Shown: positions 16,333 through 37,944 of the stretch, piece after piece
Position numbering within the stretch: the stretch's first letter is position 1
How the letters are laid out: each line of letters starts with the position of its first letter
NCBI GenBank assembly: GCA_016874945.1
Contig: VGSO01000001.1
Coordinates: 1-39,178, forward strand
DNA from: Deltaproteobacteria bacterium
GTDB lineage: Bacteria; Desulfobacterota; Desulfobaccia; Desulfobaccales; 0-14-0-80-60-11
DNA: 39,178 nt
Direction: 5' to 3'
The notes under the pieces: generated by a model
Told to the model about the DNA's origin: nothing
The model's database searches: none
The model's input: the letters and a program-made list of their open reading frames with translations, nothing else
Position numbers and translations under genes: made by a program

Positions 16333-16333
16333 T

Positions 16334-21130: not shown

Positions 21131-21182
21131 TTACTCGAATATTTATAGCGATTGCCAAAAGTTTTTTCCGATTGTTTTTTGA

Positions 21183-21242
21183 CGTAGGGGGCACAGCGTG
21201 CTGTGCCCCTGTACCTTGGGCACGGCGAGCCGTGCCCCTACG
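21183..21242. repeat. Twin GC-rich hairpins (GGGGCACAG/CTGTGCCCC and GGGCACGGC/GCCGTGCCC) bracketed by CGTAGGGG...CCCCTACG
   Basis: Direct reading. It lies in the 229-nt gap between the wzc stop and the next gene's start. It looks like a REP-like element or an intra-operon RNA structure. Confidence 0.7.
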
Positions 21243-21359
21243 GGAAAATTACTTTGGGCAACCCCTATAATAGAATGTTCAGATGAATGCAAATAAAGAC
21301 CTCTTTCCAACTGCTCCTTGGCAAGCCAGTAAATTGCGGCGCCCCAGGTTGCCGGTGAG

Positions 21360-23630: not shown

Positions 23631-23810
23631 AGCGCTTATCCTTGCTGATCCGGAATCTCAGACCCTTTAGCCAAGGGTCAAATTTCTGGGGCGGCAGTTA
23701 ATCTGGCCATGGAGTGTTAGGTTACCAAACCTCCAGGCCGCGGCAAAATCCAGGTCAACGTTTCCTGATTTTTCAGGAAAAGACCGCTACGGCTGGCGTC
23801 CAGCCTTTAT

Positions 23811-24854
23811 TTACAACATGGCCGGGATGCCCGCGCCGACGGCGCCGGGGTTAAACATCTTTAAGTCGAAGAGAAACCGGCGCATCCCACTTTCATGCAC
23901 GAATACAATGTCATTTTCCTTGAGGGGCACGTCGGGTTCATGTCCCTTGGTGATAGAGGCGATGTTAATGGGAATGGTCTGGCGCTGGCCATTCTCATCC
24001 ACCCTTAAAATGGTGGCGCTGTTGGAAGCCAGTATTATGTGCTGACCCCCTGCTTGGGCCACCGCCTTGGTCACCGTCATATTGTTCTTGACAGGGACCT
24101 CCCCCGGCTTGTGAACCGCTCCCAGCACAAAGGCGAGATTGGCAAAGGGAACATGGATCACATCCCCGTTCTGGATAGGATAATTCAAATCCACCGCTCC
24201 CTTGAGCAACAGCCGATTTAAATCCACCACCACAGTCTCCGTGCCCGGGGAAAAAGACGAGACGCCACGGGGGGAGGATGATCCTTTCTGGGAGCGGATT
24301 ATATGCGCCACTTCGCCGGCCTTGTCGGAGAGTCCGCCGGCCATCCCCAGCACCTCCAGCAGGTAGCGGGGTCCTATGAGGGCATAATGATCAGGTTTGT
24401 TAACCGCGCCGGTGACGGCCACCTTCTGGTGGCGGAATTCTTTGACGGATACCCTGATTTGAGGGTTCTTGAGAATATCTTCTTCTTTGTATAATTGGAC
24501 CAGCTTCTTTTCAATTTCGTTGGTGGTTAAACCTCCCACCTTGAGTATCCCCACCAGAAGCAGACTGATTTCACCCTGCCCGTTGACCCGGATCTCTGCA
24601 CGCAGCTTGTCGGTGTCCAGGAAATTGATTTCCAGGAGATCCTCCGGGCCGACTTTATAATCTTTAAAATCCACGGCGGAGACCTGGGCCTGGGCCACCT
24701 GCTTTAACAACTGCTCCTGGAGGCGGTTTTTGGCCTGGGAGTCCGCCTGGGCCATGATCTGCGGGGGCGGCAGCTGGGCTCCGGGGCCGCCGCAACCCAA
24801 TGCTCCCAGCAAGATGCCCAAAAACGCCGCCAACCAAGATTTCCCCAATTTCAT
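23811..24854 (-). CDS. wza: Outer-membrane polysaccharide export lipoprotein (Wza-like, Poly_export + SLBB domains)
   Basis: ATG at 24854 (MKLGKSWLAAFLGILLGALGC, lipobox-like) has AGGAA 7 nt upstream, and an alternative ATG lies at 24869. PEDLLEINF and NGDVIHVP motifs are present. Confidence 0.9.
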   Translation of the reverse strand: MKLGKSWLAAFLGILLGALGCGGPGAQLPPPQIMAQADSQAKNRLQEQLLKQVAQAQVSAVDFKDYKVGPEDLLEINFLDTDKLRAEIRVNGQGEISLLLVGILKVGGLTTNEIEKKLVQLYKEEDILKNPQIRVSVKEFRHQKVAVTGAVNKPDHYALIGPRYLLEVLGMAGGLSDKAGEVAHIIRSQKGSSSPRGVSSFSPGTETVVVDLNRLLLKGAVDLNYPIQNGDVIHVPFANLAFVLGAVHKPGEVPVKNNMTVTKAVAQAGGQHIILASNSATILRVDENGQRQTIPINIASITKGHEPDVPLKENDIVFVHESGMRRFLFDLKMFNPGAVGAGIPAML

Positions 24855-24947
24855 TTTACGGTTCCTCATAAAGCTTGTGTAAACTCCCCCCCATCGGGGG
24901 ATTAACCTAAATATTTCACCTCATAGTCTTAAGCCGGTTTCTGATAA

Positions 24948-25174: not shown

Positions 25175-25208
25175 GGCGGCCGGGTCCCCTTGGGAGAACC
25201 CGGCCGCC
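25175..25208 (-). terminator. Intrinsic terminator after the cytochrome c peroxidase gene
   Basis: A 10-11 bp GC stem (GCGGCCGGGT / ACCCGGCCGC) sits 24 nt after the stop. On the minus strand it is followed by TTGGTTATTTCTGTTTTC. Confidence 0.55.
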
Positions 25209-25231: not shown

Positions 25232-27298
25232 TTAATGCAAGAACTGGTTCACGTTTAAGAATGGCTGCAGGGGCTGCAGCCCGGCCGGAATGCGGCCGGC
25301 GGCGCCCACCGGCGGAATCTCCATGACGAAGTCGGCGGGCGGCGTGACCGAGAAGTTCACCCCATGGGGAACGAAGAGCTGGGGATGATCGAAGGGCGCC
25401 CGCTCTTCCTGAACCCGGGGATCCGTGAGGCCCATGAGAAAGGCCACCACGGCCGATTTATTGGCATTGTTGCCCCGGATAAAGCCGATGGGAGAAATCT
25501 CCAGGGGGATATCCCCATCCTCATCTATGGTCACATCCGGGAAGTTCCCAAACCGGAAGTTACCGCCCCGGGAGTAAAAGTCCACCACCTGCATCAGGGT
25601 CGCGGCGCTCCCGCTGTGGAAGTAGGGACCCGTCAGGTTGATGTTGCGCAGATGGGGGACCTTGGTGGCGCCGGCATTAACTGCCCGGTCCGGCGTGGGA
25701 CGGGTATCGTTGGGTCTGAAACCAACCGGCAGATCGGGGGTAAACGCGGCCACCGAGGGGGGCAGCAACCCGTCCCGTTTCAGGATGGCCAAACTGGCCC
25801 AGGACAGGGGATACTCCGCCCCGGTGCGGGGGTTGACAAAGGGCGCGGTCCCCGCCCGGCCGGGGTCGTTGGCGGTCCGCACCACGCTGATGTTGGTAAA
25901 ATCCACGTCATAAAGGGCGTCACCCACCGAGAAAGGCATGAGTTCTATGGCGTTGGGCGGGTTTTTGGTCGGGTCGGGGGCAGGAACCGGGACTCCGGGT
26001 ACGGGATCGGGAGGCGCCAGCAGATTCCCCACCGACGCGCCGGTCATTTCGGGGCCAAGGTGGCAAACATTGCACTGCCCATTCCCCTGGAAAATCTGCA
26101 TGCCGAACACCTGCTGCGGAGTCAGGGCATTGGGGAACCCCTCCTGAAAGCGGTCGAAGGGGGTGTCGTCGGCGATCAGGGTGGCCTCGTAGAGCTGCAC
26201 CGCCAGGCCAAAGAAGAGGCTAAAATTGGCCTCCATCTGGTTGTACTGATCGGTGCCCACGGGGGCGCCGGTTTGGACGGTGGGAAGCCCATTGGCGTCA
26301 AAGGTGACAAATTGCGTGGTATTGCTCCAGTACCGGGGCGCGAAGGCTTGCTTGATCAAGTCCGCATAGGTGGCGTTGATGCCTGGGACATTGGTGGGCA
26401 CCCCGGAGACCAGGGTGGACTTGGAGAGGGCGCCCAGGACGCTGTCCTGGGGGTGCACCACCTGCTGGGCCAGGGGCGGCAGACTGAGCATCTTCTTGCC
26501 CACCTTGGGCCAGGTGCGTCCCCTCCAGGACATCTCGAAGTCGCTGAGGGGCGGTCCCACGGCCTGCGAAGCCAGGCTGGCGTTGCGGATGCGGATAACC
26601 ACCGGGGTCAGCGCCCCGCTGATATTCGCCACGATCCTTCTGTTGGGATTGCCGGTCGCGTCCGTGTCCGCGGCGCCGAAGGGGTTGGCGCCGTTGAAGA
26701 TATTGTTGGCCCGGCCGTCCCAGAAGTTGGCGAAGTTGAAGACGGCATTGATCACGGTGGGGGTATTGCGGGGCTCCACCCGGCGAAATCTCCTGCCCCA
26801 AATGGGGTCGGTTAGGGGAGTCCCGGCATCCACGGCATTTCCCGGAACGATATCGGTGAACTGGAAAAGCCGCACCCCCTGGGAAGAGACCACGTCATTC
26901 CAATCCCGGAGTACGCCTTGGCTGGGATCATTGGGATTGACAAACTTGACGAAGGGGAATTTGAACCTGCTCAGGTTGGTGTTGCGAGTGCCCGCCTGGA
27001 AGGTGGTATCCCCCCCCAGGGTGTCGGGGTTGAGTTGGGCCCGGGTCCGGTTGTCGGCCCCGGCGTGGAAATGGCAACTGGCGCAGGCGGTGAAGCCGTC
27101 GCTGCCCACCTGCATGTCCCAGAACAGGGCCTTGCCCAACGTGATGGCCGCGGCTCTATCCCGGACAAAACTGCCGATAGTGGGGGGCTCAGGCACCAGG
27201 ATGGTTTTCAGGGATTGCCCCCAAACGGCTCCGGGCAGAAGAGCCAGTCCCAAGACCATGGCCAGGATAAAACTGGCCCTTAACTTAGAAGCTTGCAT
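25232..27298 (-). CDS. Secreted dihaem cytochrome c peroxidase/MauG-family protein, unusually long (688 aa)
   Basis: A Sec signal is present (MQASKLRASFILAMVLGLALLPGAVWG). There are two CxxCH motifs, CASCH (27071-27085) and CNVCH (26060-26074). SD GGAGGAG lies 8 nt upstream. Confidence 0.9.
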   Translation of the reverse strand: MQASKLRASFILAMVLGLALLPGAVWGQSLKTILVPEPPTIGSFVRDRAAAITLGKALFWDMQVGSDGFTACASCHFHAGADNRTRAQLNPDTLGGDTTFQAGTRNTNLSRFKFPFVKFVNPNDPSQGVLRDWNDVVSSQGVRLFQFTDIVPGNAVDAGTPLTDPIWGRRFRRVEPRNTPTVINAVFNFANFWDGRANNIFNGANPFGAADTDATGNPNRRIVANISGALTPVVIRIRNASLASQAVGPPLSDFEMSWRGRTWPKVGKKMLSLPPLAQQVVHPQDSVLGALSKSTLVSGVPTNVPGINATYADLIKQAFAPRYWSNTTQFVTFDANGLPTVQTGAPVGTDQYNQMEANFSLFFGLAVQLYEATLIADDTPFDRFQEGFPNALTPQQVFGMQIFQGNGQCNVCHLGPEMTGASVGNLLAPPDPVPGVPVPAPDPTKNPPNAIELMPFSVGDALYDVDFTNISVVRTANDPGRAGTAPFVNPRTGAEYPLSWASLAILKRDGLLPPSVAAFTPDLPVGFRPNDTRPTPDRAVNAGATKVPHLRNINLTGPYFHSGSAATLMQVVDFYSRGGNFRFGNFPDVTIDEDGDIPLEISPIGFIRGNNANKSAVVAFLMGLTDPRVQEERAPFDHPQLFVPHGVNFSVTPPADFVMEIPPVGAAGRIPAGLQPLQPFLNVNQFLH

Positions 27299-27497: not shown

Positions 27498-28757
27498 TTA
27501 CGGCAACAGAGTGGTCTGGATGGTTGCCGCGCCGCCCAAGGCGGACCTCACGGTGACCGAAACCGGGGCATTGACGTTCGCGATCACCGTGTCGGCCCCG
27601 CCGACGTTCAACAGCCGGCCGGCGGCCCCCGCACCTGGGAAGAAGGCCCTCAGGGCCGGCGGGTTGACGGCCACGGAGGAAACGGCCGCCACGGTCAACG
27701 TCCGGGTGGCGATGGCATAGGTGGCCTTGGTGATGGTGACCACGTCCTTGAGGGGGGCCGTCAGAATAGTCTGTTGCACCGGAGGGCCGGCGATGGTCCC
27801 GGTGACCGTCACGTTCGCCGGGAAAGCCGGGGCTGCCCAGGGGATGAGGGCGGCGAAGACCGCGGTGGCGCCCTGCCTCACCAAGGGAACGGCCGCCTGG
27901 CCCGGCAACCCCGCGGTAATCGTCGAACCGGCGGGGATGGGTCGGGGGAAGTTGGCGAACACCTGGGCAGTGGCCCCGCCGACGGCCGGCACGCTAACGG
28001 TGGACTGGGTGACTTTGAAGGGGACGCCGGTGAACAACTCGGCCCCGGTGACAAACAGGTTGGTCTGGGCGTTGTTCCAACCCCCCCCGTTGACCCGGAA
28101 AAAGTTGTTGCCGGTGGGGCTGCCGGTGACCGGGGCGAGGGTGGCGGCGTCACCGAGAGACCCCGGAGGCGCGCCCACCTGCTTCAGGAAAGGCCCGATA
28201 TCCCCGACCCGCGCGGCATTGAAGTTTAACGGCACGGCCCCGATGTCAATGGTGTCGTTGATGGACCGGTTGCCCGGTTGGACGTTCTGATAGGTCCGGG
28301 CGCCGTAAGGATGAGTCACCGTGACGTCTCCGGCGACGGTGGTGTCAATGCGGATCCGGACCCGGGCGAAGACCATCTGATCCCCGTTGGCGGCGTCTCC
28401 TTGGGCAAAAGCGGCCTCCAACGCCAGAACCAATAAGGCATCTCCCGGAACGCCGGGATTGCTGACGGGGTCCATGGTGGCGGTGCTATGCCAATACATG
28501 GCTTCGCTGTTGAAGCCGATCTGGAGGGCAAAAGGGTTAACCGGGAACCCATCCAGTACGGGATCATTGTCCGGAATGCTCAGGGGGCTGGGCGGGACGG
28601 ACAACGTCACCGTCTGGCCCAGGGAGTCCCGGTACCAGACGGGAAAGCCGTTAGTCGGGTTTACCGGACCCACGGCCGTCAAAGCCGGCAGCGCCGCCTG
28701 GGCGAAAGCCAGGACCAGCGCCGCGGCCAACAAAAGGACTCTACCCTTCTTCAACAT
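27498..28757 (-). CDS. Secreted hypothetical protein (419 aa), no recognisable domain
   Basis: A Sec signal is present (MLKKGRVLLLAAALVLAFAQAALPA). SD AAGGAGA lies 8 nt upstream. The protein is Cys-free and rich in Ala/Gly/Val/Thr/Pro, with beta-rich-looking C-terminal segments (VTITKATYAIATRTLTVAAVSS). Confidence 0.8.
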   Translation of the reverse strand: MLKKGRVLLLAAALVLAFAQAALPALTAVGPVNPTNGFPVWYRDSLGQTVTLSVPPSPLSIPDNDPVLDGFPVNPFALQIGFNSEAMYWHSTATMDPVSNPGVPGDALLVLALEAAFAQGDAANGDQMVFARVRIRIDTTVAGDVTVTHPYGARTYQNVQPGNRSINDTIDIGAVPLNFNAARVGDIGPFLKQVGAPPGSLGDAATLAPVTGSPTGNNFFRVNGGGWNNAQTNLFVTGAELFTGVPFKVTQSTVSVPAVGGATAQVFANFPRPIPAGSTITAGLPGQAAVPLVRQGATAVFAALIPWAAPAFPANVTVTGTIAGPPVQQTILTAPLKDVVTITKATYAIATRTLTVAAVSSVAVNPPALRAFFPGAGAAGRLLNVGGADTVIANVNAPVSVTVRSALGGAATIQTTLLP

Positions 28758-28980: not shown

Positions 28981-30459
28981 TTAAGCGGTGATATTGATGG
29001 GAATCCGGGCGGTAAATCTCCGGGAGCGACCCCTTAAGGTGTCCAGAAAGTCCACCGTGGCGAAGCCGCTGAAGGGCGCACTCTCCCGGATCAGGCAGTC
29101 AAAGCGCCGGGCCACGCTGAACTCCATGGGGGTGCCGGCCGGCACCAGCACGGGGGAATTGTACGTGCCGAAAGGCGGCACTCCCAGGGCCCGGCCGTCC
29201 CAGGCGATGATCACGATGTTCACCGGGAAGGTCACCCGGACGCTGTTGTAGGCCGCGTTGAGGACCCGGACCAGGATGTTCCGGTTGACCCGGGAGTTGA
29301 TGGACACCTGGACGCCGGAAACGCCGCTCATCAGATACGGCGGGACGACGATGCCCGGGGGCAGGTCCCCCGTTCCCCCCAGCGGGCCCGGCACGTTGAC
29401 CCCGGTGACGTACCAGTGGGTGGAGCGGTAATCGTTGAAGGCGAAGAAATCCGTGGGGAGGACCGGGACCAGGGGATCCCCGTGGGAATAAAAATTATCG
29501 TTGACCCCCGGTATGGTGCCTTCCACGGGAAAAGTTTGCGCAGAATTCTGAGCCAGGCGGGACCAGCGGATGTCCCGGTCGTCGAACACCCAGATGGCCT
29601 CGTTTTGGTAATGGACGGTATAGGCATGGGGGTTGGTGGGAAACTGGCCCTGGGGGTCCGGACTGGTCAGGGGGACGCGGTACGACGGATGCTGGTTGAA
29701 CTGGGGGAAGTTCGCCAGGTTGGCCGCCACCCGGCGGCTGCCGTTGGGGAAACCCAGGGACGGCCGGCTGAAACCGATGGGCCGGTTGTTCAGGACCACG
29801 GAGCCATTCGGGTTGACGGATGCAATGGAGGCATAAAAGGCGTCCGGCGGGTCCACCACGAAAAAGCCGTACAACCCGAACTCGAAGTGCTGCACGGTGT
29901 TCCGGTGGCAGTGGTAGAAGTAGCTGCCCATGTGGTTGGGCTGGAACTGGTAGGTATAGCGGCCCAGCTCCATGGAGCAGTGCCCCACCCCGTCGTTGAT
30001 GGGGGTGGGCTCGAACCCGTGCCAGTGGATGGTGTGGGGCGGTTGCGGGCTGCCCTGGGTTTCGCACTTGAAATCGCAGCCCCGGGGGGCCCGGATGGTG
30101 GGCGCGGGGAAGCTCCCGTCAATCGCTTCATTGATGCCGGTAGGGTCATTCATGAGGAAAAAGTCCATGGGCCGGTTGTCCCAGGTGGGCATAATCATGC
30201 CGTGCAACAGGGACCGATGCACCGTATTAGGCGGGCGGGGCGGGTTTCGGTCCAGGAAACCGGCCGCGGCCATGACCTCCGGCACGGGGTTGGGAAAGGG
30301 AAAATTGGCGGCAGTCAGCGGCACCGCCAGGGGCGGGCGAACCACCAGATCCGGGGTGGCCGGGCTCTCTCTGGGGGGGTCGAACATCTTGCTGTGCATC
30401 CCCTCCATGCCCGCCACCGACCTGCGAAGGACTCGAAACGCTGGATTTTGGAATGACAT
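28981..30459 (-). CDS. Multicopper-oxidase-like protein A: N-terminal cupredoxin domain with T1 ligands and four trinuclear-cluster His, a degenerate C-terminal domain, and no signal peptide
   Basis: HTIHWHG lies at 30016-30036 and YHCHRNTVQHFEFGLYG at 29872-29913. The C-terminal region ILVRVLNA...VIIAWDG has no HxH pairs. SD AAGGAGAA lies 5 nt upstream of the ATG. Confidence 0.85.
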   Translation of the reverse strand: MSFQNPAFRVLRRSVAGMEGMHSKMFDPPRESPATPDLVVRPPLAVPLTAANFPFPNPVPEVMAAAGFLDRNPPRPPNTVHRSLLHGMIMPTWDNRPMDFFLMNDPTGINEAIDGSFPAPTIRAPRGCDFKCETQGSPQPPHTIHWHGFEPTPINDGVGHCSMELGRYTYQFQPNHMGSYFYHCHRNTVQHFEFGLYGFFVVDPPDAFYASIASVNPNGSVVLNNRPIGFSRPSLGFPNGSRRVAANLANFPQFNQHPSYRVPLTSPDPQGQFPTNPHAYTVHYQNEAIWVFDDRDIRWSRLAQNSAQTFPVEGTIPGVNDNFYSHGDPLVPVLPTDFFAFNDYRSTHWYVTGVNVPGPLGGTGDLPPGIVVPPYLMSGVSGVQVSINSRVNRNILVRVLNAAYNSVRVTFPVNIVIIAWDGRALGVPPFGTYNSPVLVPAGTPMEFSVARRFDCLIRESAPFSGFATVDFLDTLRGRSRRFTARIPINITA

Positions 30460-30490
30460 ATTCGTTCTCCTTTAAAATCTCAGGGAAGGT

Positions 30491-32128
30491 TTACGGGAAC
30501 GCCGGGTCCACAAAGGGCGGCGGGAACGGCGGCCGGGGAGTCTGGGATAACAACTCCGAGTCCTTGCTGGGCCCCATGACGCCGTCGCGCCGCGCCTCGT
30601 CAATGCCATACACCAGGATCTGGGGAACTTGATCGAGACCGAGCATCATGGCGAAATCCTCGTCCATGGGGAAGGTCTGCGGCGGCAGCAGGGGCATATC
30701 CGGGTTGCTGCCGGGAGCGGCAAACCGGTCGTTGACGTTAAAGCGCGGCAGGGTGATGTTTAGGTCGCCGATGAAATATTGTCCGCCGATGACGCCGCAG
30801 TTGTAGTTGCCCCCCTGGGAGGTCTGGGAGGGCTCGGAATGGTCGTGAGCCGGATAGCACAGGGGCGACAGCCGCACCGGAATGGTATTGCCGAAGGCCA
30901 GGTCAAACTCCTCCACGGGCGGCCAGGTGGTGGCGCCGTTGGCAGTGGGAAGCGGAGCGTCCGCCAGGCCGATGCCCCGGACATTGTGAACGTCCGGCGG
31001 CCGCTGGAAGAGCATCAGTATATCATACCGGCTGGAGGGAGCCCCGAATTGGTTGGCCTGGAAGGTGTCCACCCAGATGACCCCGGGGCGGGTGAGGGTG
31101 GCATTGGCGGGAACCGGGGCGCCCATGACCACGCCGTCCACCGAGAGGAGGTAAAAGTGGTTGGCGTGGATGTGCATGGAATGGGTCATCAACCCGGCGT
31201 TCAGGACCCGGAGCACGCAGGGCTCGCCTACCCGGGCCATGGGGGTGACCACCGGGTTGTTATGGGAGAAATGGCCGGACTGGCCCATGGAGGTGAAGTA
31301 TTGGGGGATGTCGCTGGCCACGGTCAGGTCGTGATTATTGCGGCCGAAGGCGTCTCTGGTGAATCTCCGCACGAATTCCGCGGCCGGGAAGATCTGCCCG
31401 GCCGGGAGGCTGCCCACGTCCCGGAAGAGGAGGGGGCTGGCCTGGCTGAGGAGCCAGATATACTGCCGGAAGGGTGGGGTCTGGGTGGGCGCATTGGCCT
31501 GTTCCCAGGCCAGGCCGGGGAAGTGGGCGGCGGCGCCCAGGTCGTTGAACAATTGCTGCACCTGGGGAGTGGGATTGGCATAGGGCGTCCATTTTTGCCC
31601 CGCCGCCGGCGCCGCGGGCATGACGACGAAGGCGCCGTGCAGCCCCATCACCCGGTTCACCGGGGCATTCAGGGAGTCGAAATAGAGATAGGTGCCCGGG
31701 GCGCCGGCCGCAAATATGAAATCTCTCGGGACGCCGTCCGGCGGGATGGGCCCGCTGTTGAACATTCCTCGAATGACCAGGCTATGTGGCTCATCCAGGG
31801 CGTTGGTGATTCTGAGAGAGATGATGTCCCCCGTGGTGGCAAAGAGGGTGGGGCCGGGGCAATCGGCGGGAAGGTCAATGACCCGGCCGTCGCCCAGAGT
31901 CGCGGTCATCTTGTAAATCCAGAAGTAACATTCGCCGTTGCCGGGCCCGGCAATTACCGAGAGGGCGTTAAAGGTCGCCATCTCCTTGATGCAATCGGTG
32001 ATGGTGATGTCAAGACGGGCGATGTGGTCGGCCTGGGCCGGCTTGGCTCCCAGCCAGGGGAGCTTGGTACCCAACATCAAGGCGGCCGAGGCGCCGGTGG
32101 CGTACTTGATAAAATCTCGTCTTTCCAT
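30491..32128 (-). CDS. Multicopper-oxidase-like protein B with a Tat signal: degenerate N-terminal domain, C-terminal domain with HxxHxH and H-D-H
   Basis: ATG at 32128 (MERRDFIKYATGASAALMLG...AQA) has AGGAG 7 nt upstream, and the 32143 start in the track is TTG. The twin-Arg motif lies at 32105-32122. HSMHIH lies at 31166-31183 and HDH at 30839-30847. EPHSLVIRG and GTYLYFDS occupy the places of HWHG and WYHSH. Confidence 0.85.
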   Translation of the reverse strand: MERRDFIKYATGASAALMLGTKLPWLGAKPAQADHIARLDITITDCIKEMATFNALSVIAGPGNGECYFWIYKMTATLGDGRVIDLPADCPGPTLFATTGDIISLRITNALDEPHSLVIRGMFNSGPIPPDGVPRDFIFAAGAPGTYLYFDSLNAPVNRVMGLHGAFVVMPAAPAAGQKWTPYANPTPQVQQLFNDLGAAAHFPGLAWEQANAPTQTPPFRQYIWLLSQASPLLFRDVGSLPAGQIFPAAEFVRRFTRDAFGRNNHDLTVASDIPQYFTSMGQSGHFSHNNPVVTPMARVGEPCVLRVLNAGLMTHSMHIHANHFYLLSVDGVVMGAPVPANATLTRPGVIWVDTFQANQFGAPSSRYDILMLFQRPPDVHNVRGIGLADAPLPTANGATTWPPVEEFDLAFGNTIPVRLSPLCYPAHDHSEPSQTSQGGNYNCGVIGGQYFIGDLNITLPRFNVNDRFAAPGSNPDMPLLPPQTFPMDEDFAMMLGLDQVPQILVYGIDEARRDGVMGPSKDSELLSQTPRPPFPPPFVDPAFP

Positions 32129-32172
32129 GGGTGTTCTCCTCAATTTAAGGATTAATCACATCATTTGGCCTC

Positions 32173-32212
32173 ATGTTTATCTACGAAGCCTCATGTTTAT
32201 CTATGTTTATCT
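32173..32212. promoter_or_regulatory. Three direct copies of ATGTTTATCT at 32173, 32193 and 32203 (10- and 20-bp phasing), 45-85 nt upstream of the MCO-B start
   Basis: Direct reading. Longer units CCTCATGTTTATCTA x2 and TGTTTATCTACGAA x2 are present. On the coding (minus) strand the repeat is AGATAAACAT. Confidence 0.5.
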
Positions 32213-32262
32213 ACGAAACTAATTTTTGTGAGTTCCTCCTCCTGCCTTGAAAAGTTCAAGAT

Positions 32263-32284
32263 GCACAGGCTGGAAAGCCTGTGC
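32263..32284. other. Perfect 9-bp hairpin GCACAGGCT-ggaa-AGCCTGTGC in the MCO upstream region
   Basis: Direct reading. A second hairpin TGAGCC-gaa-GGCTCA lies at 32311-32325. Confidence 0.6.
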
Positions 32285-32390
32285 TACTGATACTTTTCAT
32301 GGTTTATGGGTGAGCCGAAGGCTCATGGCCAACTGCTTTAATTAAAGTTTCATGTTAGGTTTGATTATATGAGTCCCCAGATTATAATAA

Positions 32391-32861: not shown

Positions 32862-33476
32862 CTATCGGACCAGCCGCCAGGCCACCCAGGTGAAACTCCC
32901 CTCGGGGGGCATCTCGATAACCCATTCATCTTGAGTGGCGCGGCGCCTCCGGGACCAGCCCATTTTCCGGTAAAGGGTTAGGAGCTCTTCCTCCTGGGTG
33001 TCCTTGAAACCGGAAAGGATCAAGGCGGCCCCCGGCGCGGCCAATCGGGACAGTTCCGCGGCTTTGGCCAACTGCACCGGGAGGGGCAGGTTGGCCATGA
33101 TCAGCGGGAAACTGCCTTTGATGGCCTCGGTGGACCCCTGGACCACGGGAACCTGTCTTTCCAACCCATTCCTCCGGGCATTGTCCCGGGAGACCTGCAC
33201 CGCTTGCGAGCTAAGATCCACTCCCACGCAGAAGGGAGCGCCCAGGGCCGCGGCGGCCAGGGCCAGGATGCCGGAGCCGCACCCCACGTCCAGGACCGGG
33301 GCGCCGGGGTGTTCGGTCAAAGTTGCGGCCAGCAGTTGCAGGCAAAGGCGGGTGGTGGGGTGGCTGGGCGGAAAGACCTGGGGCGCTTGCAGCACCAGGA
33401 CCCGCTCGCCCCGGCGGGGAAAGTATGGCCGCCAGGGAGAGCGCAGCACCAGGCCGGGGGTGAGGCGGTGGAACAT
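32862..33476 (-). CDS. PrmA-like class I SAM methyltransferase (ribosomal protein L11 methyltransferase family) lacking the usual N-terminal domain
   Basis: HPTTRLCLQLL, VLDVGCGSGILALAAAALGA and VGVDLSSQAVQVSRDNARRNGL are present. At 204 aa it is short of the roughly 290 aa typical for PrmA. No clear SD. Confidence 0.7.
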   Translation of the reverse strand: MFHRLTPGLVLRSPWRPYFPRRGERVLVLQAPQVFPPSHPTTRLCLQLLAATLTEHPGAPVLDVGCGSGILALAAAALGAPFCVGVDLSSQAVQVSRDNARRNGLERQVPVVQGSTEAIKGSFPLIMANLPLPVQLAKAAELSRLAAPGAALILSGFKDTQEEELLTLYRKMGWSRRRRATQDEWVIEMPPEGSFTWVAWRLVR

Positions 33477-33548
33477 GGGGGCACTTTAGCACAACATGGG
33501 GGGATTTGCTATTTGGGCTTATGTTGTGGGTTGGCTTCTGGCGTTGAC

Positions 33549-33594
33549 TCAATTCCTGACGCCAAGACGCGAAGGATTAAAGATGCAAGGAAAG
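33549..33594. repeat. Copy B of the dispersed ~40-nt element (tcaattcctgacgccaagacgcgaagg..atgcaaggaaag)
   Basis: It aligns with 5762-5799 with a 7-nt insertion. Confidence 0.6.
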
Positions 33595-33702
33595 TCGCCA
33601 AGGGCCTTGACCGTGCTTAGCTTTTTGGGTAAGAATAGACGCATTGGGAAAAGCCCCTGATTATTCATGACTTATTTATATGTAGGTTTATTATCATTTC
33701 AA

Positions 33703-34182
33703 ATGGAAAAGATTTTACTAACCCGGGCCGGTTATGAGAACCTTCTCCAGGAACTGGACCTGTTGAGCCAGGTGGAGCGGCCCCAGATTGTCCAGGAATT
33801 GCAGGAAGCCGCCCATGGCGGCCGGCTGGAGAAGAATCCGGACTACCAATCGGCCCTGGCCCAGCGGCAGAAAGTGGACCGCCGCATCCGGCACATCCAG
33901 CAGATACTGGCCAACGCCGAAGTCCTGGTGGGCAGCAACGTCAATCCTACCCGGGTGGGATTCAACTGCCGGGTCCGGGTCCGGAACCTGGGCGCCGGCC
34001 AGGAGAAGGAATTCAAGATAGTCAGCGCGGTGGAGGCGGACGCGGCCCGGGGTCTCATCTCCAAGACCGCGCCTCTGGGCCGGGCTTTGCTGGGCCGGGG
34101 TCCGGGCGAGCGGGTTACGGTCAAGACGCCTGGAGGGTTCCGGACGTACCAGATCCTGACCATTGAGATGGAAGAGCTGTGA
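33703..34182 (+). CDS. greA: Transcription elongation factor GreA
   Basis: MEKILLTRAGYENLLQELDLL forms the coiled-coil N-domain, and the C-terminal domain has ISKTAPLGRALLGRGPGERV. ATG at 33703 is preferred over 33667. Confidence 0.88.
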   Translation: MEKILLTRAGYENLLQELDLLSQVERPQIVQELQEAAHGGRLEKNPDYQSALAQRQKVDRRIRHIQQILANAEVLVGSNVNPTRVGFNCRVRVRNLGAGQEKEFKIVSAVEADAARGLISKTAPLGRALLGRGPGERVTVKTPGGFRTYQILTIEMEEL

Positions 34183-34186
34183 GGCC

Positions 34187-34291
34187 GGTTTCAGGGGTCA
34201 GGTTTCAGGTTTCAGGTTTCAGGTTTCAGGTTTTAGGTTTCAGGTTTTAGGTTTTAGGTTTCAGGTTTCAGGTCTTAGGTTTCAGGTTTTA
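34187..34291. repeat. 15-unit tandem heptamer array (GGTTTCA / GGTTTTA, with GGGGTCA and GGTCTTA variants)
   Basis: Direct reading. It starts 5 nt after the greA stop. The 34163..34366 ORF in the track is a translation artefact of this array. Confidence 0.95.
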
Positions 34292-34534
34292 GTTAAAAGA
34301 AATCAGCTATTTAAATCTATAAAAATCAATAATGTAGAACAGCCGCCCGCGTCTGTTCAATATTAGTTCAACCGTCAGGTGGAGCTTTCTGGCCGATTTT
34401 TGAAAATCTCAGTTTGCCGCTTGTAGATAAAACGATGAGTATAATCGTTTAATTTAACATGAGAGTTGCAGTATTTGAAATTGCAAAAAATAAGCCACAT
34501 AATAAGTTTTAGAAACTTCGGAGAGACAACTAGG

Positions 34535-35476
34535 TTGAACGACCACACTCACTCCCATCCCCACCCCCACCGCCTGAGCAGCCGCCGCCGCCTGGCCGTG
34601 GCCTTTTGGACCCAGGCCGCGTTTTTCGTGGTGGAGCTGGTGGGGGGGCTGCTTACCAACAGTCTGGCTTTGCTGGCGGATGCGGGCCACATGCTCAGCG
34701 ACGTGGGGGCCTTGGGCCTAAGCCTCCTGGCTCTGCACTGGGCCGGCAAGCCGCCCACTCTCCGCAAGACCTACGGCTACCACCGCCTGGAAATTTTGGT
34801 GGCGCTGGTCAACGGCCTCATCTTGTGGGGCATGGCGGCCTACATACTTTACGAGGCCTATCTGCGGTTTTATCAGCCGCCGGCCATCAGCGGCTTTCCC
34901 ATGCTGATCATCGCCTCCCTGGGGCTCCTGGTGAACCTCCTGGGAATGTTCGTCCTTTTCCCCCACCGGGAGCACAGCATAAATATCCGTTCCGCGTTTC
35001 TCCATCTGCTGGCCGACTCCCTGGGTTCGGTGGCAGCCATCGCCGCCGGCGCGGCCATCCTGTGGCAAGGCTGGTACTGGTTCGACCCCCTGGCCGGCGC
35101 GGTGGTGGGGGTGATGATCATCGTGGGAAGCTGGCAACTGGTCTGGGAGGCCGGGGATATTTTGCTGGAAGCTACACCCAAACATATCGACCTGGGGCAG
35201 GTGCAGGCGGCCCTGGAAGCCCATCCCGGAGTGTCCCACGTGCACGATCTCCACGTGTGGACCATCGCGTCGGGCATTTATGCCCTGAGCGTGCATGTGG
35301 GGGTGGACGGCCGGAATGACCGGGACTGCCTCACCCGGGAGCTGGAAGAATTGGTGCGGCAGCGCTTCGGACTGGAACATGCCACCATCCAGACGGAAGG
35401 CCCGGATTATCAAAATCCCCGGGTATGCCCGTTGCATCCCCTAGCAGAAGCAAACTCCAAGCACCACCACGATTGA
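34535..35476 (+). CDS. Cation diffusion facilitator (CzcD/ZitB-type Zn/Co/Cd efflux)
   Basis: An N-terminal His-rich segment (HTHSHPHPH) is present, with the TM2 motif LLADAGHMLSD, the TM5 motif HLLADSLGS and a C-terminal His tail. There is no in-frame ATG before TM1. TTG at 34535 has GGAGAG 9 nt upstream, and the alternative at 34466 is also TTG. Confidence 0.88.
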   Translation: MNDHTHSHPHPHRLSSRRRLAVAFWTQAAFFVVELVGGLLTNSLALLADAGHMLSDVGALGLSLLALHWAGKPPTLRKTYGYHRLEILVALVNGLILWGMAAYILYEAYLRFYQPPAISGFPMLIIASLGLLVNLLGMFVLFPHREHSINIRSAFLHLLADSLGSVAAIAAGAAILWQGWYWFDPLAGAVVGVMIIVGSWQLVWEAGDILLEATPKHIDLGQVQAALEAHPGVSHVHDLHVWTIASGIYALSVHVGVDGRNDRDCLTRELEELVRQRFGLEHATIQTEGPDYQNPRVCPLHPLAEANSKHHHD

Positions 35477-35496
35477 CCTGTAGCTGAGGAGGAGAC

Positions 35497-37944
35497 ATGT
35501 CTCAAAGCACGTGGGAATTGAAGCCGGAAAATCTGCGCGCCGTTTGTGACCCGGATTCTTTGGGATTCGAAACCACCCTGGACCTCACCCCCTTGAAAGA
35601 GAAAGTGGTGGGCCAGGATCGGGCAGTGACCGCGCTGGAGTTCGGCCTGGGGATCAAGGACCTGGAATATAATATCTTCGTGGCCGGGCCGCCCCGGGCC
35701 AATAAGACGGAAACCATCATGGCCTATGTGTCCGAGCTGGCCGCGGGCATGCCGGTGCCGCCGGATTATATCTATGTTCACAACTTCAAAGACGGGGACC
35801 GTCCCCAGGCCCTGAGCCTGCCCGCGGGCCAGGGCCGGGTTCTAAAGGCGGACATGGAGGATCTCATCGCCACCCTGCGGGTGCGGATCCCCGAAGTCTT
35901 CGAGAGCGAAGATTACTCCAGCCGGCGGGAATCCCTGGTGCACGGCTTTACCCAGGAACGCAACGCCATCCTTCAGGAACTGGACGCCAAGGCCACCGAG
36001 GAGGGCTTTATCCTCAACATCTCCCCCACGGGCTTGATGATTTTCCCGGGACGGGAGGGCAAACCCATGAGCGAGGAAGAGCTCAAGGCCCTGAATGACG
36101 AGGAACGGGAAGCCCTGCGCACCAAGTCCAGCGCCCTGCACACGGAGATGAATGAAGCCATCCGCCGCATCCGCAAGATGGAAAAAGAGTTTCAGGAGAA
36201 GGAAAAGAAGTTGGACCAGGACGTGGCCCTGTACGTGGTGGGCCATCTCATGGAAGAATTGCGGGAAAAATACAAGAACTTGCGCCAGGTTCTGGAGTAC
36301 TTTAAGGAGGTGCAAGAGGAGATTCTCAAAAATATCGATGAGCTGAAGCGCCGCCCCGGCGCGCCCACCCCTTTTCCCTTTCCCACCCCGGAGCCGACGT
36401 TCACCCAGTACCAGGTGAACGTGCTGGTGGATAACTCGAAGACCAAAGGCGCGCCGGTAATCCTGGAGGGCAACCCCACCTATCCCAATATCTTCGGCGC
36501 GGTGGAACGCCGGGCCCAGTTTGGCGCCCTGGTCACCGACTTTACCCTGATCCGCCCCGGGTCTCTGCACCGGGCCAATGGGGGGTTCCTGATCCTGGAA
36601 GCCCTGCCCCTGCTCCGCTGGTATTTCTCTTACGAGGCATTGAAGCGCTGCCTCAAGGATGGAGAGATCAAGATCGAAGACCTGGCGGAGCAAATCGGCC
36701 TCATCAGCACCCGGGCCTTGCAGGCCCAGCCAATCTCCCTGGACATCAAGGTCATTATCATCGGCGATCCTTATATTTATCAGCTTCTTTATATTTACGA
36801 CGAAGACTTCACCAAGCTCTTCAAGATCAAGGCCCACTTCGACTGGCGGATGCGCCGGACCGACGACCACGTGGAGAAGTTCTCCGCCCTGGTGGCGGGC
36901 TACTGTCAGGAGCACAAACTGATGCCGGTGCACAAAACCGGCATGGCCCGCCTGGTGGAATACGCCGGGGAACTGGCCGGCCACTCCAAGAAGCTCACCC
37001 TGCAGCTCAAGGAGGTCCTGGACGTCCTCAAGGAAGCCAATTTCTGGGCCCGGAGCAACACCCATGAAGTCATTTTCGGCTCCGACGTGGAGAAGGCCAT
37101 CCGGGAAAAGATTTACCGCTCCGACCTGCCGGAAGAAAAGATGCAGGAGTTCATCGACGAAGGCATGCTCTTTATCGAAACCGCCGGCGATGTGGTGGGG
37201 CAGGTTAACGGCCTGTCGGTTTACATGCTGGGGGACCATGCCTTTGCCCGCCCCAGCCGCATCACCGCCACTGTCTCCCTGGGCAAAGAAGGGGTGGTGG
37301 CCATCGACCGGGAGGCCCAACTGGCCGGGAACATCCATAACAAGGGGGTATTGATCCTATCAAGCTATCTCCGGAGCCGCTTCGCCCAGGACAAGCCGCT
37401 GACGTTGTCCGCCAGCCTCACCTTTGAGCAGAGTTACGGCATGGTGGAAGGGGACAGCGCCTCCTGCGCCGAATTAATCGCCCTCCTGTCAGTCCTGGCC
37501 GAGGCGCCTCTCAAGCAGAACATCGCCCTCACCGGCTCCGTGAGCCAGCGGGGCGAGGTGCAGCCCATCGGCGGGGTAACCTGGAAGGTCGAAGGCTTCT
37601 ACAAGGTCTGCAAAGCCCGGGGGCTGGACGGCGTCCAGGGGGTCGTCATCCCCAAGGTCAACGTCCAGGACCTGATGTTGGACCGGGAGGTGGTGGACGC
37701 GGTCAAGGAAGGCAAGTTCCACGTCTGGGCCGTGGGCCACGCGGACGAGGCTCTGGAACTCTTAACCGGCCTGCCCGCGGGAAAGCGCCTGGAGGATGGG
37801 ACTTGGGAACCGGACACCGTCAACTTTAAAGTGGACCAAAAACTGCGTCAGATAATGGAACTGGCCCGGGAGCTGATGAAGGGCGAGGAGGAAAAGAAGA
37901 GTCCCAGCCCGCCGCCGGCGTCTTGTCCGGAGTGCGGCAAGTAA
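35497..37944 (+). CDS. Lon-like protease of the LonC/LonB-like type, with an AAA-like domain carrying a long helical insertion
   Basis: SD GAGGAGGAG is present. The P-loop is GPPRANKT (35686-35709) and the Walker-B region is GGFLILEA. A coiled-coil-like insert spans about residues 115-300. The S16 protease Ser motif GDSAS lies at 37450-37464 and the Lys in IGGVTWK. The protein ends with CPECGK. Confidence 0.88.
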   Translation: MSQSTWELKPENLRAVCDPDSLGFETTLDLTPLKEKVVGQDRAVTALEFGLGIKDLEYNIFVAGPPRANKTETIMAYVSELAAGMPVPPDYIYVHNFKDGDRPQALSLPAGQGRVLKADMEDLIATLRVRIPEVFESEDYSSRRESLVHGFTQERNAILQELDAKATEEGFILNISPTGLMIFPGREGKPMSEEELKALNDEEREALRTKSSALHTEMNEAIRRIRKMEKEFQEKEKKLDQDVALYVVGHLMEELREKYKNLRQVLEYFKEVQEEILKNIDELKRRPGAPTPFPFPTPEPTFTQYQVNVLVDNSKTKGAPVILEGNPTYPNIFGAVERRAQFGALVTDFTLIRPGSLHRANGGFLILEALPLLRWYFSYEALKRCLKDGEIKIEDLAEQIGLISTRALQAQPISLDIKVIIIGDPYIYQLLYIYDEDFTKLFKIKAHFDWRMRRTDDHVEKFSALVAGYCQEHKLMPVHKTGMARLVEYAGELAGHSKKLTLQLKEVLDVLKEANFWARSNTHEVIFGSDVEKAIREKIYRSDLPEEKMQEFIDEGMLFIETAGDVVGQVNGLSVYMLGDHAFARPSRITATVSLGKEGVVAIDREAQLAGNIHNKGVLILSSYLRSRFAQDKPLTLSASLTFEQSYGMVEGDSASCAELIALLSVLAEAPLKQNIALTGSVSQRGEVQPIGGVTWKVEGFYKVCKARGLDGVQGVVIPKVNVQDLMLDREVVDAVKEGKFHVWAVGHADEALELLTGLPAGKRLEDGTWEPDTVNFKVDQKLRQIMELARELMKGEEEKKSPSPPPASCPECGK

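What the first reader, a model, noticed from the sequence alone, without database searches (positions are those of the whole stretch)
28981..32128. Two adjacent multicopper-oxidase-like genes with complementary copper-ligand sets: a candidate split (heteromeric) MCO
Protein A (28981-30459) has in its N-terminal cupredoxin domain H142-T-I-H145-W-H147-G (30016-30036) and H183-C184-H185-x5-H191-x4-L196 (29872-29913). That is the HxxHxH plus HCH...H...L pattern, giving one type-1 Cu site and four trinuclear-cluster (TNC) His. Its C-terminal domain keeps MCO-like scaffold sequence (ILVRVLNA, VIIAWDG) but has no HxH pair. Protein B (30491-32128) is the mirror image. Its N-terminal domain has the L1/L2 scaffolds with the His replaced (EPHSLVIRG for HWHG, GTYLYFDS for WYHSH). 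Its C-terminal domain keeps H321-S-M-H324-I-H326 (31166-31183) and H433-D434-H435 (30839-30847), with Asp where the T1 Cys normally sits and no downstream T1 His. Summed over both proteins there are exactly eight TNC His and one T1 site; neither protein alone has a complete set. Known MCOs build the TNC within one chain, or between identical chains in two-domain MCO trimers. An obligate A+B heteromer with an inter-subunit TNC would be an architecture I do not know to be described. The axial Leu suggests a high-potential T1 site.
Basis: partly seen in the sequence, partly recalled or inferred. Interest (0 to 1): 0.88.

Follow-up and report, generated by a model that had tools for sequence, protein, structure and literature searches.

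The report
Split two-gene multicopper oxidase
Two neighbouring genes each encode half of the copper-binding residues of a multicopper oxidase, so the oxygen-reducing copper cluster can probably form only where the two different proteins meet, an arrangement not described for this well-studied enzyme family.

Summary
Gene B (30491-32128, minus strand, Tat signal) and gene A (28981-30459, no signal peptide) both resemble type C two-domain multicopper oxidases (MCOs). A keeps a full type-1 site (H142, C184, H191, axial L196) and four trinuclear-cluster His (H145, H147, H183, H185) in its N-terminal domain, and none in its C-terminal domain. B is the reverse, with H319, H321, H428 and H430 in its C-terminal domain only.

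These residues are invariant in 120 homologues of each protein and in 74 genome-derived pairs. B sits directly upstream of A in 77 of 80 genomes, and the other three contigs end before B could be seen. All 73 B partners carry a twin-arginine motif, and all A partners start with a conserved signal-less N-terminus, which suggests co-export with B. Natural B-A fusion proteins exist (for example P0435, 931 aa) with the same ligand pattern.

The best reading is an obligate 1:1 A·B heteromer with one type-1 copper and one inter-subunit trinuclear cluster. No structure, curated family or paper describing this was found. Not settled: direct proof of the shared site, the higher-order assembly and the substrate. 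Neighbouring genes point to copper handling.

The parts
30491..32128 (-). Gene B: 545-aa Tat-exported MCO-like subunit. It carries four trinuclear-cluster His in its C-terminal cupredoxin domain and no copper ligands at the canonical positions of its N-terminal domain.
   Evidence: ORF. Pfam Cu-oxidase_3 at 2.9e-10. AF2 pLDDT 83, pTM 0.87. Best Foldseek match 3g5w, E 2.7e-15.
32030..32128 (-). Tat signal peptide of B (MERRDFIKYATGASAALMLGTKLPWLGAKPAQA).
   Evidence: TIGR01409 scores 18.3 bits, above its 16.7 cut-off. Pfam TAT_signal 6e-4. An RRxF/L motif is present in 73/73 B homologues.
31619..32023 (-). B domain 1 (residues 36-170): a degenerate cupredoxin domain. EPHSLVIRG (31766-31792) replaces HxxHxHG. 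YLYFDSLNAPVNRVMGLHG (31634-31690) replaces the HCH...H...L motif.
   Evidence: hhalign A versus B. Profile alignment to 2zwn/3g5w domain 1. H115, D151, N158 and L163 are invariant and H164 nearly so (73/74).
30764..31300 (-). B domain 2 (residues 277-455), carrying HSMHIH (H316, H319, H321; 31166-31183) and HDH (H428-D429-H430; 30839-30847). These supply four trinuclear-cluster His.
   Evidence: H319, H321, H428 and H430 are 120/120 and 73-74/74. HxH aligns to the domain 2 HxH of 2zwn and 3g5w. HDH sits at the end of strand 424-429, before the last strand.
28981..30459 (-). Gene A: 492-aa signal-less MCO-like subunit with a type-1 Cu site and four trinuclear-cluster His in its N-terminal cupredoxin domain.
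   Evidence: ORF. Pfam Cu-oxidase_3 at 1.1e-14. AF2 pLDDT 83, pTM 0.87. Best Foldseek match 3g5w, E 1.4e-14.
30370..30459 (-). Conserved, signal-less N-terminal arm of A (MSFQNPAFRVLRRSVAGMEGMHSKMFDPPR). It is predicted disordered in the monomer and is a candidate docking segment for B.
   Evidence: Conserved consensus. pLDDT 33-42 over residues 1-29. A related motif (FETFGCKP..SPPTPD) follows the B-like half in the fusions.
29845..30225 (-). A domain 1 (residues 79-205). HTIHWHG (30016-30036) gives H142 (T1) and H145/H147 (trinuclear cluster). NDGVGHC (29977-29997) contains the second-sphere D156. HCHRNTVQHFEFGL (29872-29913) gives H183/H185 (trinuclear cluster), C184 and H191 (T1), and axial L196.
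   Evidence: Alignment to 3g5w domain 1. All these residues are invariant.
28984..29619 (-). A domain 2 (residues 281-492): a degenerate cupredoxin domain with no ligands. VLNAAYNSVRVTFPVNI (29215-29265) aligns with B's LNAGLMTHSMHIHANH. The domain is nevertheless strongly conserved.
   Evidence: hhalign. Many invariant non-ligand residues. There is no His after residue 348.
27498..28757 (-). Third operon gene (called P3 in this report): a 419-aa Sec-secreted protein of an uncharacterised family.
   Evidence: No Pfam or NCBIfam hit. Relatives are fused to PKD, Big, dockerin and CarboxypepD_reg domains. Found near B-A in 15 of 80 loci.
25232..27298 (-). Fourth operon gene (called DH in this report): a 688-aa secreted di-haem CCP/MauG/MbnH-like cytochrome c, with CASCH at residue 72 and CNVCH at residue 409.
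   Evidence: Pfam CCP_MauG 8.8e-19. TIGR04039 at 1.9e-25, below its cut-off. Haem motifs. Found near B-A in 25 of 80 loci.
25175..25208 (-). Terminator-like hairpin (15-bp stem followed by a T-run), 24 nt after the DH stop. It marks the likely end of the B-A-P3-DH operon.
32168..32217 (-). Three direct repeats (ATGTTTATCTAYG on the plus strand, spaced 20 and 10 nt), 40-90 nt upstream of the B start. This is a candidate regulator-binding site.
   Evidence: Not tested further.

Best explanation
A and B are paralogous descendants of a type C two-domain MCO that have lost complementary halves of the copper ligands.

They assemble 1:1 in the cytoplasm. The signal-less A is carried across the membrane by the Tat signal of B (hitchhiking). 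Outside the cytoplasm, domain 1 of A (H145, H147, H183, H185) and domain 2 of B (H319, H321, H428, H430) close around one trinuclear copper cluster.

Electrons taken one at a time at the type-1 copper of A (H142, C184, H191, non-coordinating L196) pass through the Cys184-His183/His185 bridge to that cluster, which reduces O2 to water. The ligand-free domains (B domain 1 and A domain 2) and the family-specific insertions act as scaffold.

The physiological electron donor is unknown. Gene neighbourhoods favour a role tied to copper handling, such as cuprous or other metal-ion oxidation, or electron input from the co-encoded di-haem cytochrome.

Shown here: the ligand complementarity and its invariance, the homology to type C two-domain MCOs, the strict B-A synteny, the Tat asymmetry, and the natural fusions. 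Inferred: physical assembly, the shared cluster, co-export, O2 reduction and the substrate.
For: Ligand maps.

Both proteins match type C two-domain MCOs best by sequence and by fold. In that class, two protomers jointly coordinate the trinuclear cluster (PMC13151041).

The A/B profile alignment is colinear and shows reciprocal His loss.

All ligands are invariant in 120+120 homologues and in 74 genome pairs. The second-sphere Asp (A D156) is also 74/74.

B lies immediately upstream of A in 77/80 loci. The other 3 loci are cut by contig ends. The median intergenic gap is 59 bp. Where duplicated, the unit repeats as B-A-B-A. B-first sampling gave 3/3. Distant pairs show the same pattern.

The Tat motif is present in 73/73 B proteins, and every A N-terminus read is the conserved signal-less type. 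A TatA/B/E gene lies in one such locus.

Natural fusions in B-then-A order carry the same ligand pattern: P0435, a second gene in L081, P0499 and P0397.

The conserved N-terminal arm of A and the ligand loops have low pLDDT in the monomer models, as expected for segments that become ordered on binding a partner or copper.

Copper-handling genes lie within 10 kb in 36/80 loci: CusA/B-like, SCO1+YtkA, and CopC/CopD.
Against: There is no direct structural or biochemical evidence. A multimer or fused model could not be run.

Two-domain MCOs form closed trimers, and a 1:1 A·B unit cannot close such a ring by itself. The real quaternary structure is therefore unknown.

The hhalign probability for A versus B is low (19%, E 0.0012), although the alignment is colinear and agrees with the PDB alignments.

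Placement of B's HDH at the canonical position rests on the secondary-structure context of the model. No sequence match to a solved structure covers it.

Many hosts are anaerobes (Geobacteraceae, Syntrophobacteraceae, Methanoperedens), which makes O2 an odd physiological acceptor.

The copper-gene context fits copper delivery to the enzyme as well as it fits copper detoxification.
Confidence: 0.8

Rival explanations
1. A and B do assemble, but the inter-subunit metal site is not a canonical O2-reducing trinuclear cluster. It might hold fewer coppers, or carry out other chemistry (nitrite, hydroxylamine or N-oxide conversion, peroxide handling), as NirK and the archaeal MCO Nmar_1354 do.
For: Many hosts are anaerobes. 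A di-haem peroxidase-like gene is frequently linked. NirK structures are among the fold and sequence matches. A related two-domain MCO oxidises hydroxylamine (PMC11761707).
Against: The full 4 x (H-x-H) pattern and the second-sphere Asp are invariant. That is the trinuclear-cluster signature, not the three-His type-2 site of NirK. The NirK equivalog model TIGR02376 scores 15.8 bits against a cut-off of 296.
Confidence: 0.12
2. The functional particle is not a simple A·B dimer. It could be a trimer-like or larger assembly (A2B, AB2, (AB)n), or A·B plus a third protein such as P3, in which only the A-domain-1:B-domain-2 interfaces carry copper clusters.
For: All solved two-domain MCOs and NirKs are closed trimers, and A and B superpose on them. 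P3 is in the same operon here.
Against: The fusions fix a 1:1 ratio. Duplications occur as B-A units. P3 is near only 15 of 80 loci and has no MCO signature. A2B or AB2 rings would leave orphan half-sites.
Confidence: 0.3
3. The two proteins act separately. A would be a blue-copper electron carrier with vestigial His, and B a largely copper-free MCO-like scaffold of the SufI/FtsP kind. The complementarity would then be a by-product of independent decay after duplication.
For: Copper-free MCO-like proteins exist (SufI/FtsP structures appear among the matches). Each protein has one fully degenerate domain.
Against: Decay would not keep exactly the four complementary His invariant in each family across Bacteria and Archaea. 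Nor would it keep A signal-less next to a Tat-bearing B in every case, or produce repeated B-A fusions.
Confidence: 0.04

Closest known systems
Type C two-domain multicopper oxidases (Nitrosomonas europaea blue copper oxidase 3G5W; metagenomic mgLAC 2ZWN; Arthrobacter 3GDC)
   Same: These are the best sequence and fold matches for both A and B. They share two cupredoxin domains, a type-1 Cu in the N-terminal domain, and a trinuclear cluster built from domain 1 of one chain and domain 2 of another.
   Different: The known enzymes are homotrimers of one gene product. Each chain has all eight-His contributions and a T1 site, giving three clusters per trimer. Here two different gene products each carry only half the ligands. 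There is one T1 and one cluster per A·B pair. Each chain is about 150-230 aa longer, and only one carries an export signal.
Three-domain MCOs of copper homeostasis (CueO, PcoA/CopA) and laccases (CotA, fungal laccases)
   Same: They share the four His-x-His pairs, the Cys-His electron bridge and the second-sphere Asp after HWHG. They are Tat-exported, as CueO is. The operon context includes CopC/CopD or Cus genes.
   Different: They are single chains with the cluster between domains 1 and 3. NCBIfam CueO, CopA and laccase models score far below their cut-offs (23-39 bits against 479-615).
Multi-subunit MCO complexes (Bacillus Mnx MnxE3F3G; fungal POXA3/NLAC large plus small subunit)
   Same: These are MCOs that work as hetero-oligomers (PMC10443355; the Mnx complex is from my own knowledge).
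   Different: The accessory subunits are not MCO paralogues and contribute no trinuclear-cluster ligands. The MCO subunit is complete on its own.
Copper nitrite reductase (NirK)
   Same: It has two cupredoxin domains and a catalytic copper at the interface of domain 1 and domain 2 of neighbouring chains. NirK structures are among the matches.
   Different: It is a homotrimer with a mononuclear type-2 site held by three His. The A/B pattern is that of a trinuclear cluster.
Tat 'hitchhiker' enzyme pairs (for example NiFe-hydrogenase small and large subunits, DmsAB, NxrAB)
   Same: One subunit carries the twin-arginine signal, and the signal-less partner is encoded next to it and exported as a pre-formed complex (the concept is quoted in PMC3578206).
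   Different: I found no description of hitchhiking for MCOs. Co-export is inferred here, not shown.

Membership tests
Multicopper oxidase / cupredoxin superfamily | Cupredoxin domain homologous to MCO domains (Pfam Cu-oxidase_3 above the gathering score). | tested here: met
   A scores 54.9 bits and B 40.7 bits against a cut-off of 21. Foldseek probability is 1.00 to many MCOs.
Canonical multicopper oxidase (single-chain definition) | One polypeptide carries all four copper-binding motifs: eight trinuclear-cluster His plus the type-1 His-Cys-His. | tested here: not met
   A has four cluster His plus the T1 site. B has four cluster His and no T1. Only the sum is complete.
Type C two-domain MCO | Two cupredoxin domains with the 2dMCO/NirK domain arrangement. 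| tested here: met
   The top Foldseek hit for both is 3g5w (TM-score normalised to the target 0.60-0.65). 3gdc, 2zwn and 7rab follow.
Type C two-domain MCO | Type-1 Cu site in the N-terminal domain. | tested here: inconclusive
   Met in A (H142, C184, H191, L196 invariant). Not met in B, where the equivalent positions are H115, D151, N158 and L163.
Type C two-domain MCO | Every protomer supplies cluster His from both of its domains, so that identical chains form the clusters. | tested here: not met
   A domain 2 and B domain 1 have no His at the ligand positions in this window. In 74 pairs, only B position 150 shows a His, in 8 sequences.
Type C two-domain MCO | Homotrimeric quaternary structure. 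| not testable with these tools
Tat-exported protein | N-terminal twin-arginine signal peptide. | tested here: met
   B: TIGR01409 scores 18.3 against a cut-off of 16.7, and the motif is present in 73/73 homologues. A: no signal is possible, because the ORF begins at the first start codon after a stop.
Tat hitchhiker pair | A signal-less partner is exported bound to the signal-bearing subunit. | not testable with these tools
   Consistent with the strict adjacency and the signal asymmetry. Co-export itself needs an experiment.
CueO/PcoA/CopA-type cuprous oxidase | Equivalog-level similarity, a Met-rich Cu(I)-binding region, and a copper-resistance operon context. | tested here: inconclusive
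   NCBIfam CueO scores 23 bits against 525, and copper_res_A 39 bits against 479, so A is not a member by sequence. The window's A has a Met-rich stretch, GMEGMHSKMF, but this is not universal. Copper-handling neighbours occur in 36/80 loci.
Copper nitrite reductase (NirK) | A type-2 site with three His, and a score above the TIGR02376 cut-off. | tested here: not met
   15.8 bits against 296.3. The ligand pattern is four His-x-His pairs.
SufI/FtsP-like copper-free MCO homologues | Loss of all copper ligands. | tested here: not met
   Half-sets of ligands are retained and invariant in both proteins.

The most novel reading that the evidence does not exclude
A·B would represent an unrecognised architectural class of multicopper oxidase. 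It would be an obligate heterodimer whose single trinuclear cluster is shared between two different gene products, exported together by Tat hitchhiking. Single-chain four-domain fused relatives would carry the cluster between domains 2 and 3. The class would be widespread in Bacteria and Archaea, including Geobacteraceae, Methanoperedens, Chloroflexi and Bacillaceae. It would also be a living example of the duplication-and-site-loss route proposed to lead from two-domain trimers to asymmetric multidomain MCOs.
Probability: 0.7. Interest if true: 0.78.

Novelty: new variant of a known kind. Interest (0 to 1): 0.7.

Why it matters
MCOs are textbook metalloenzymes. Their accepted architectures are monomeric three- or six-domain enzymes and homotrimeric two-domain enzymes (PMC13151041). 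A heteromer that splits the catalytic cluster between two paralogous subunits, together with natural four-domain fusions, would add a class to that list.

It would give a concrete intermediate for models of how asymmetric MCOs evolved from symmetric trimers. It would also extend Tat hitchhiking to copper oxidases.

In practice, motif-based surveys that require all four copper motifs in one protein would probably miss or misannotate these genes (my inference). Close relatives of A were found at 470 places among the species-representative genomes scanned, and a search of protein clusters found about 2,000 related clusters, the weakest of which may include ordinary MCOs. They occur in organisms important for metal and methane cycling.

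The asymmetry would also help experiments. With one T1 and one cluster per particle, and ligands on separate polypeptides, each half of the cluster could be mutated or labelled independently.

Tried and rejected
1. A model of the complex. I built 73 true B-A pairs from genomes and a linker-fused query. The natural fusions were found only afterwards, so they could not be folded. Model coordinates are not exposed, so no docking or superposition was possible.

2. A sequence match for B's HDH segment against the PDB returned nothing meaningful. Its placement rests on the model's strand context.

3. Literature. Nine searches were run for heteromeric, split or four-domain MCOs, Tat hitchhiking of MCOs, and Methanoperedens MCOs. 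They found only the fungal small-subunit laccases, a proteolytic 'ααα′' form of one archaeal gene product and unrelated hits.

4. P3 as a third MCO-like subunit was rejected. It has no MCO signature and is not consistently linked. Its function remains unknown.

5. NirK, CueO, laccase and SufI memberships were considered and rejected on scores and ligand pattern.

6. The mirror-tree correlation of A and B distances (r = 0.64) is only what adjacent genes with a shared history would give. I did not count it as evidence of contact. Direct-coupling analysis was not attempted because about 75 pairs are too few.

7. I looked for unsplit relatives among the 150 best representatives. None had canonical domain-2 His pairs on an A-like chain.

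Full report
**What is there**

Four co-directional genes lie on the minus strand:
- B, 30491-32128
- A, 28981-30459
- P3, an uncharacterised secreted protein, 27498-28757
- DH, a di-haem CCP/MauG-like cytochrome, 25232-27298

A strong terminator-like hairpin (25175-25208) follows DH. Both A and B have good ribosome-binding sites. A's ORF starts at the first start codon after an in-frame stop, so it cannot have a hidden signal peptide. B begins with MERRDFIKY, a twin-arginine signal that passes the NCBIfam cut-off. According to the source name on the identical protein P0001, the window is a metagenome-assembled 'Deltaproteobacteria bacterium' contig.

**Checking the observation**

Translation confirms every motif at the coordinates given.
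- A has HTIHWHG (142-148) and HCHRNTVQHFEFGL (183-196) in its N-terminal domain, and no His pair in its C-terminal domain.
- B has EPHSLVIRG and YLYFDSLNAPVNRVMGLHG in its N-terminal domain.
- B has HSMHIH and HDH in its C-terminal domain.

The only error is numbering. Counted from the ATG at 32128, B's residues are H316/H319/H321 and H428/D429/H430, not 321/324/326 and 433-435.

**What the two proteins are**

Pfam places a Cu-oxidase_3 domain in each. The best PDB sequence matches for both are the type C two-domain MCOs 3g5w, 2zwn and 3gdc. The alignments put A's HWH and HCH on the domain-1 ligands of those enzymes, and B's HIH on their domain-2 HxH.

AlphaFold2 monomer models are confident (pLDDT 83, pTM 0.87 for each). 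Foldseek ranks 3g5w first for both, followed by 3gdc, 2zwn and 7rab. So each is a two-cupredoxin-domain protein with long family-specific insertions. In A these are an N-terminal extension, the 206-280 linker and the 303-347 loop. In B they are the 171-276 linker and a C-terminal tail.

A profile-profile alignment of the two families is colinear and shows reciprocal loss:
- A PHTIHWHG aligns with B PHSLVIRG.
- A YFYHCHRNTVQHFEFGLYG aligns with B YLYFDSLNAPVNRVMGLHG.
- A VLNAAYNSVRVTFPVNI aligns with B VLNAGLMTHSMHIHANH.

In type C two-domain MCOs, the trinuclear cluster is coordinated by residues of two protomers, and the T1 site sits in the N-terminal domain (PMC13151041). Mapped onto that frame, A supplies the domain-1 half (two His pairs plus T1). 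B supplies the domain-2 half (two His pairs). Neither can complete a cluster with copies of itself.

**Is this more than chance or decay?**

In the 120 best homologues of each protein, A's H142, H145, H147, H183, C184, H185, H191 and L196 and B's H319, H321, H428 and H430 are invariant. The only exceptions are two gapped fragments. The same holds in 74 pairs extracted independently from genomes. There, A's D156 (in NDGVGH, the position of the second-sphere Asp after HWHG, from my own knowledge of CueO) is also 74/74. Mean column identity is only 36-37%. The ligand-free domains are themselves strongly conserved, so they are not decaying.

**Evidence that the two act as one unit**

1. *Synteny.* A scan of one genome per species found 470 relatives of A. 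In the 80 best loci, B lies immediately upstream on the same strand in 77. In the other three, the contig ends within 700 bp of A. The median gap is 59 bp. Where the unit is duplicated, it repeats as B-A-B-A (L001, L052, L059, L060). Sampling from the B side gave an A-like gene directly downstream in 3 of 3 cases. Distant A-like proteins (35-40% identity: P0394, P0420) are likewise preceded by Tat-bearing B-like genes with a ligand-free domain 1 and HxH plus H(C/D)H in domain 2.

2. *Export asymmetry.* All 73 B partners carry RRxF/L near the N-terminus. All A partners start with the conserved, signal-less MSFxNPA...KMFDPP. That is the signature of Tat hitchhiking, which requires a complex to form before export. 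One locus also encodes a TatA/B/E protein.

3. *Rosetta-stone fusions.* A search of 1.84 billion cluster representatives with A found single polypeptides in B-then-A order. P0435 (931 aa) has a Tat signal. Its B-like half has HIH278 and HPH346. Its A-like half has HTIHWH, HCH521 and an axial Met. P0499 is a truncated second example. P0397 (792 aa) is a third. P0435 was verified on an NCBI assembly contig (L081 5706-8501), which carries a second such fusion downstream. The fusions argue for a 1:1 functional unit. They are in effect four-domain MCOs with the cluster between domains 2 and 3.

4. *Monomer models.* A's highly conserved first 29 residues, and the loops around the ligands of both proteins, have low confidence in the monomer models. 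This is what one expects for parts that become ordered only in the complex or with copper. It is weak evidence.

**Most likely mechanism**

The apo-proteins pair in the cytoplasm. B's Tat signal exports both. Copper is then inserted. The type-1 copper in A, which has an invariant non-coordinating Leu at the axial position, takes single electrons. These pass through the Cys184-His183/His185 bridge to a trinuclear cluster held by four His of A domain 1 and four His of B domain 2, and O2 is reduced to water. The ligand pattern, homology, linkage, signal asymmetry and fusions are shown. Assembly, the shared pocket, co-export and O2 reduction are inferred.

**Substrate and physiology remain open**

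Within 10 kb of B-A, 36 of 80 loci encode copper-handling proteins. These are CusB-like adaptors with a heavy-metal-binding domain (20 loci), CusA-like pumps (13), SCO1/SenC+YtkA (12), and CopC plus CopD (3). In the complete genome of Neobacillus sp. SCS-31 the order is B, A, CopC, CopD, P3-like, which recalls copABCD operons. Di-haem CCP/MauG-like genes accompany 25 of 80 loci and P3-like genes 15 of 80. Six loci add a giant 1,400-1,800-aa MCO.

This favours a copper- or metal-oxidase role, or cytochrome-linked O2 reduction. Copper delivery to the enzyme would explain the same neighbours. Many hosts are anaerobes, which keeps a non-O2 chemistry possible.

**Quaternary structure**

Solved two-domain MCOs are closed trimers. 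A 1:1 A·B pair corresponds to two consecutive protomers of that ring and cannot close it. Either the insertions cap the free faces in a discrete heterodimer, or larger assemblies form. This could not be tested.

**Comparison with what is known**

NCBIfam (June 2026) and Pfam have no specific model for either family. The CueO, CopA, laccase and NirK equivalog models score far below their cut-offs. The PDB (2026 copy) has no closer relative than ordinary two-domain MCOs.

Literature searches found no bacterial or archaeal MCO whose trinuclear cluster is shared by different gene products, and no four-domain MCO. Known 'heteromeric' cases are of three kinds:
- fungal laccases with a non-MCO small subunit (PMC10443355);
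- the Mnx complex (my own knowledge);
- a proteolytic ααα′ form of a single archaeal gene product (PMC11761707).

A 2026 paper still lists only monomeric three- and six-domain MCOs and homotrimeric two-domain MCOs of types A, B and C. The searchable library covers open-access papers only, so a description elsewhere cannot be excluded.

**Verdict**

It is a new variant of a known kind of enzyme rather than a new kind of system. I put the confidence in a shared inter-subunit cluster at about 0.8, and the interest at 0.7.

Noticed in passing
window 31634-31792 (B domain 1): At the positions equivalent to A's type-1 ligands, B keeps an invariant set: H115 (= A H142), D151 (= A C184), N158 (= A H191) and L163 (= A L196). 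The adjacent H164 is 73/74. The loop YxYxDxLNxPVNRxMGLHG is among the most conserved parts of B. This could be a remodelled metal or substrate site, or a docking surface. B domain 2 also has Asp (D429) at the Cys position of HCH.
   Followed up: partly
L081 5706-8501 and 12477 to the contig end; proteins P0435, P0499, P0397: These are natural single-chain B-A fusions, in effect four-domain MCOs with a Tat signal and an axial Met at T1. There are two copies on one contig of NCBI assembly GCA_046756745.1, next to Por_Secre_tail and CCP_MauG-like genes. P0397 and the B-like partner in L082 keep Cys (HCH) in the B-type domain 2, which may be an ancestral state.
   Followed up: partly
window 27498-28757 (P3) and 25232-27298 (DH): P3 belongs to an uncharacterised secreted family with no Pfam domain. 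Its relatives are fused to PKD/K319L, Big, cadherin-like, dockerin or CarboxypepD_reg domains. P3 and the di-haem MauG/MbnH-like gene recur together near B-A, and their BLAST clusters merge. The pairing recalls MbnP/MbnH, but P3 hits no MbnP model.
   Followed up: partly
window 32168-32217: Three direct repeats (ATGTTTATCTAYG, spaced 20 and 10 nt) lie 40-90 nt upstream of the B start codon. A 27-nt imperfect inverted repeat lies at 32245-32302. These are possible regulator-binding sites for the operon.
   Followed up: no
L005 11866-16941, L040 2464-7680, L049, L067 11856-16301, L070, L072: In Methanoperedens, Paenibacillus and Neobacillus, a giant 1,400-1,800-aa protein with several MCO domains (Cu-oxidase_2 and _3) lies close to the B-A pair: just downstream of A in L005, L049 and L067, and on the opposite strand in L040. 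It is often followed by a P3-like gene. It may be MnxG-like, but this was not examined.
   Followed up: no
A homologues P0004-P0120; loci L001-L044: Many A homologues are 570-860 aa long because of C-terminal CarboxypepD_reg, Big or SdrD-type Ig-like domains. This suggests anchoring at the cell surface or in a matrix. The window's A lacks this extension.
   Followed up: no
window 30385-30408 (A residues 18-25): The disordered N-terminal arm of A contains a Met/His-rich stretch, MEGMHSKM. It resembles Cu(I)-binding Met motifs. It is common in the closest homologues (GMEGMxxKMF) but is replaced by GEEAEFVKMF or GHEGEWVKxF in others.
   Followed up: no
window 15115-24869 and 32862-37944: Flanking genes appear unrelated to the finding. 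Downstream lies an exopolysaccharide cluster: Wza-like Poly_export/SLBB, a Wzc-like tyrosine-kinase chain-length determinant, PAPS reductase, a flippase, a sulfatase, a methyltransferase and a glycosyltransferase. Upstream lie a PrmA-like methyltransferase, a His-rich CDF cation-efflux protein (34466-35476) and a LonB/LonC-like protease.
   Followed up: partly
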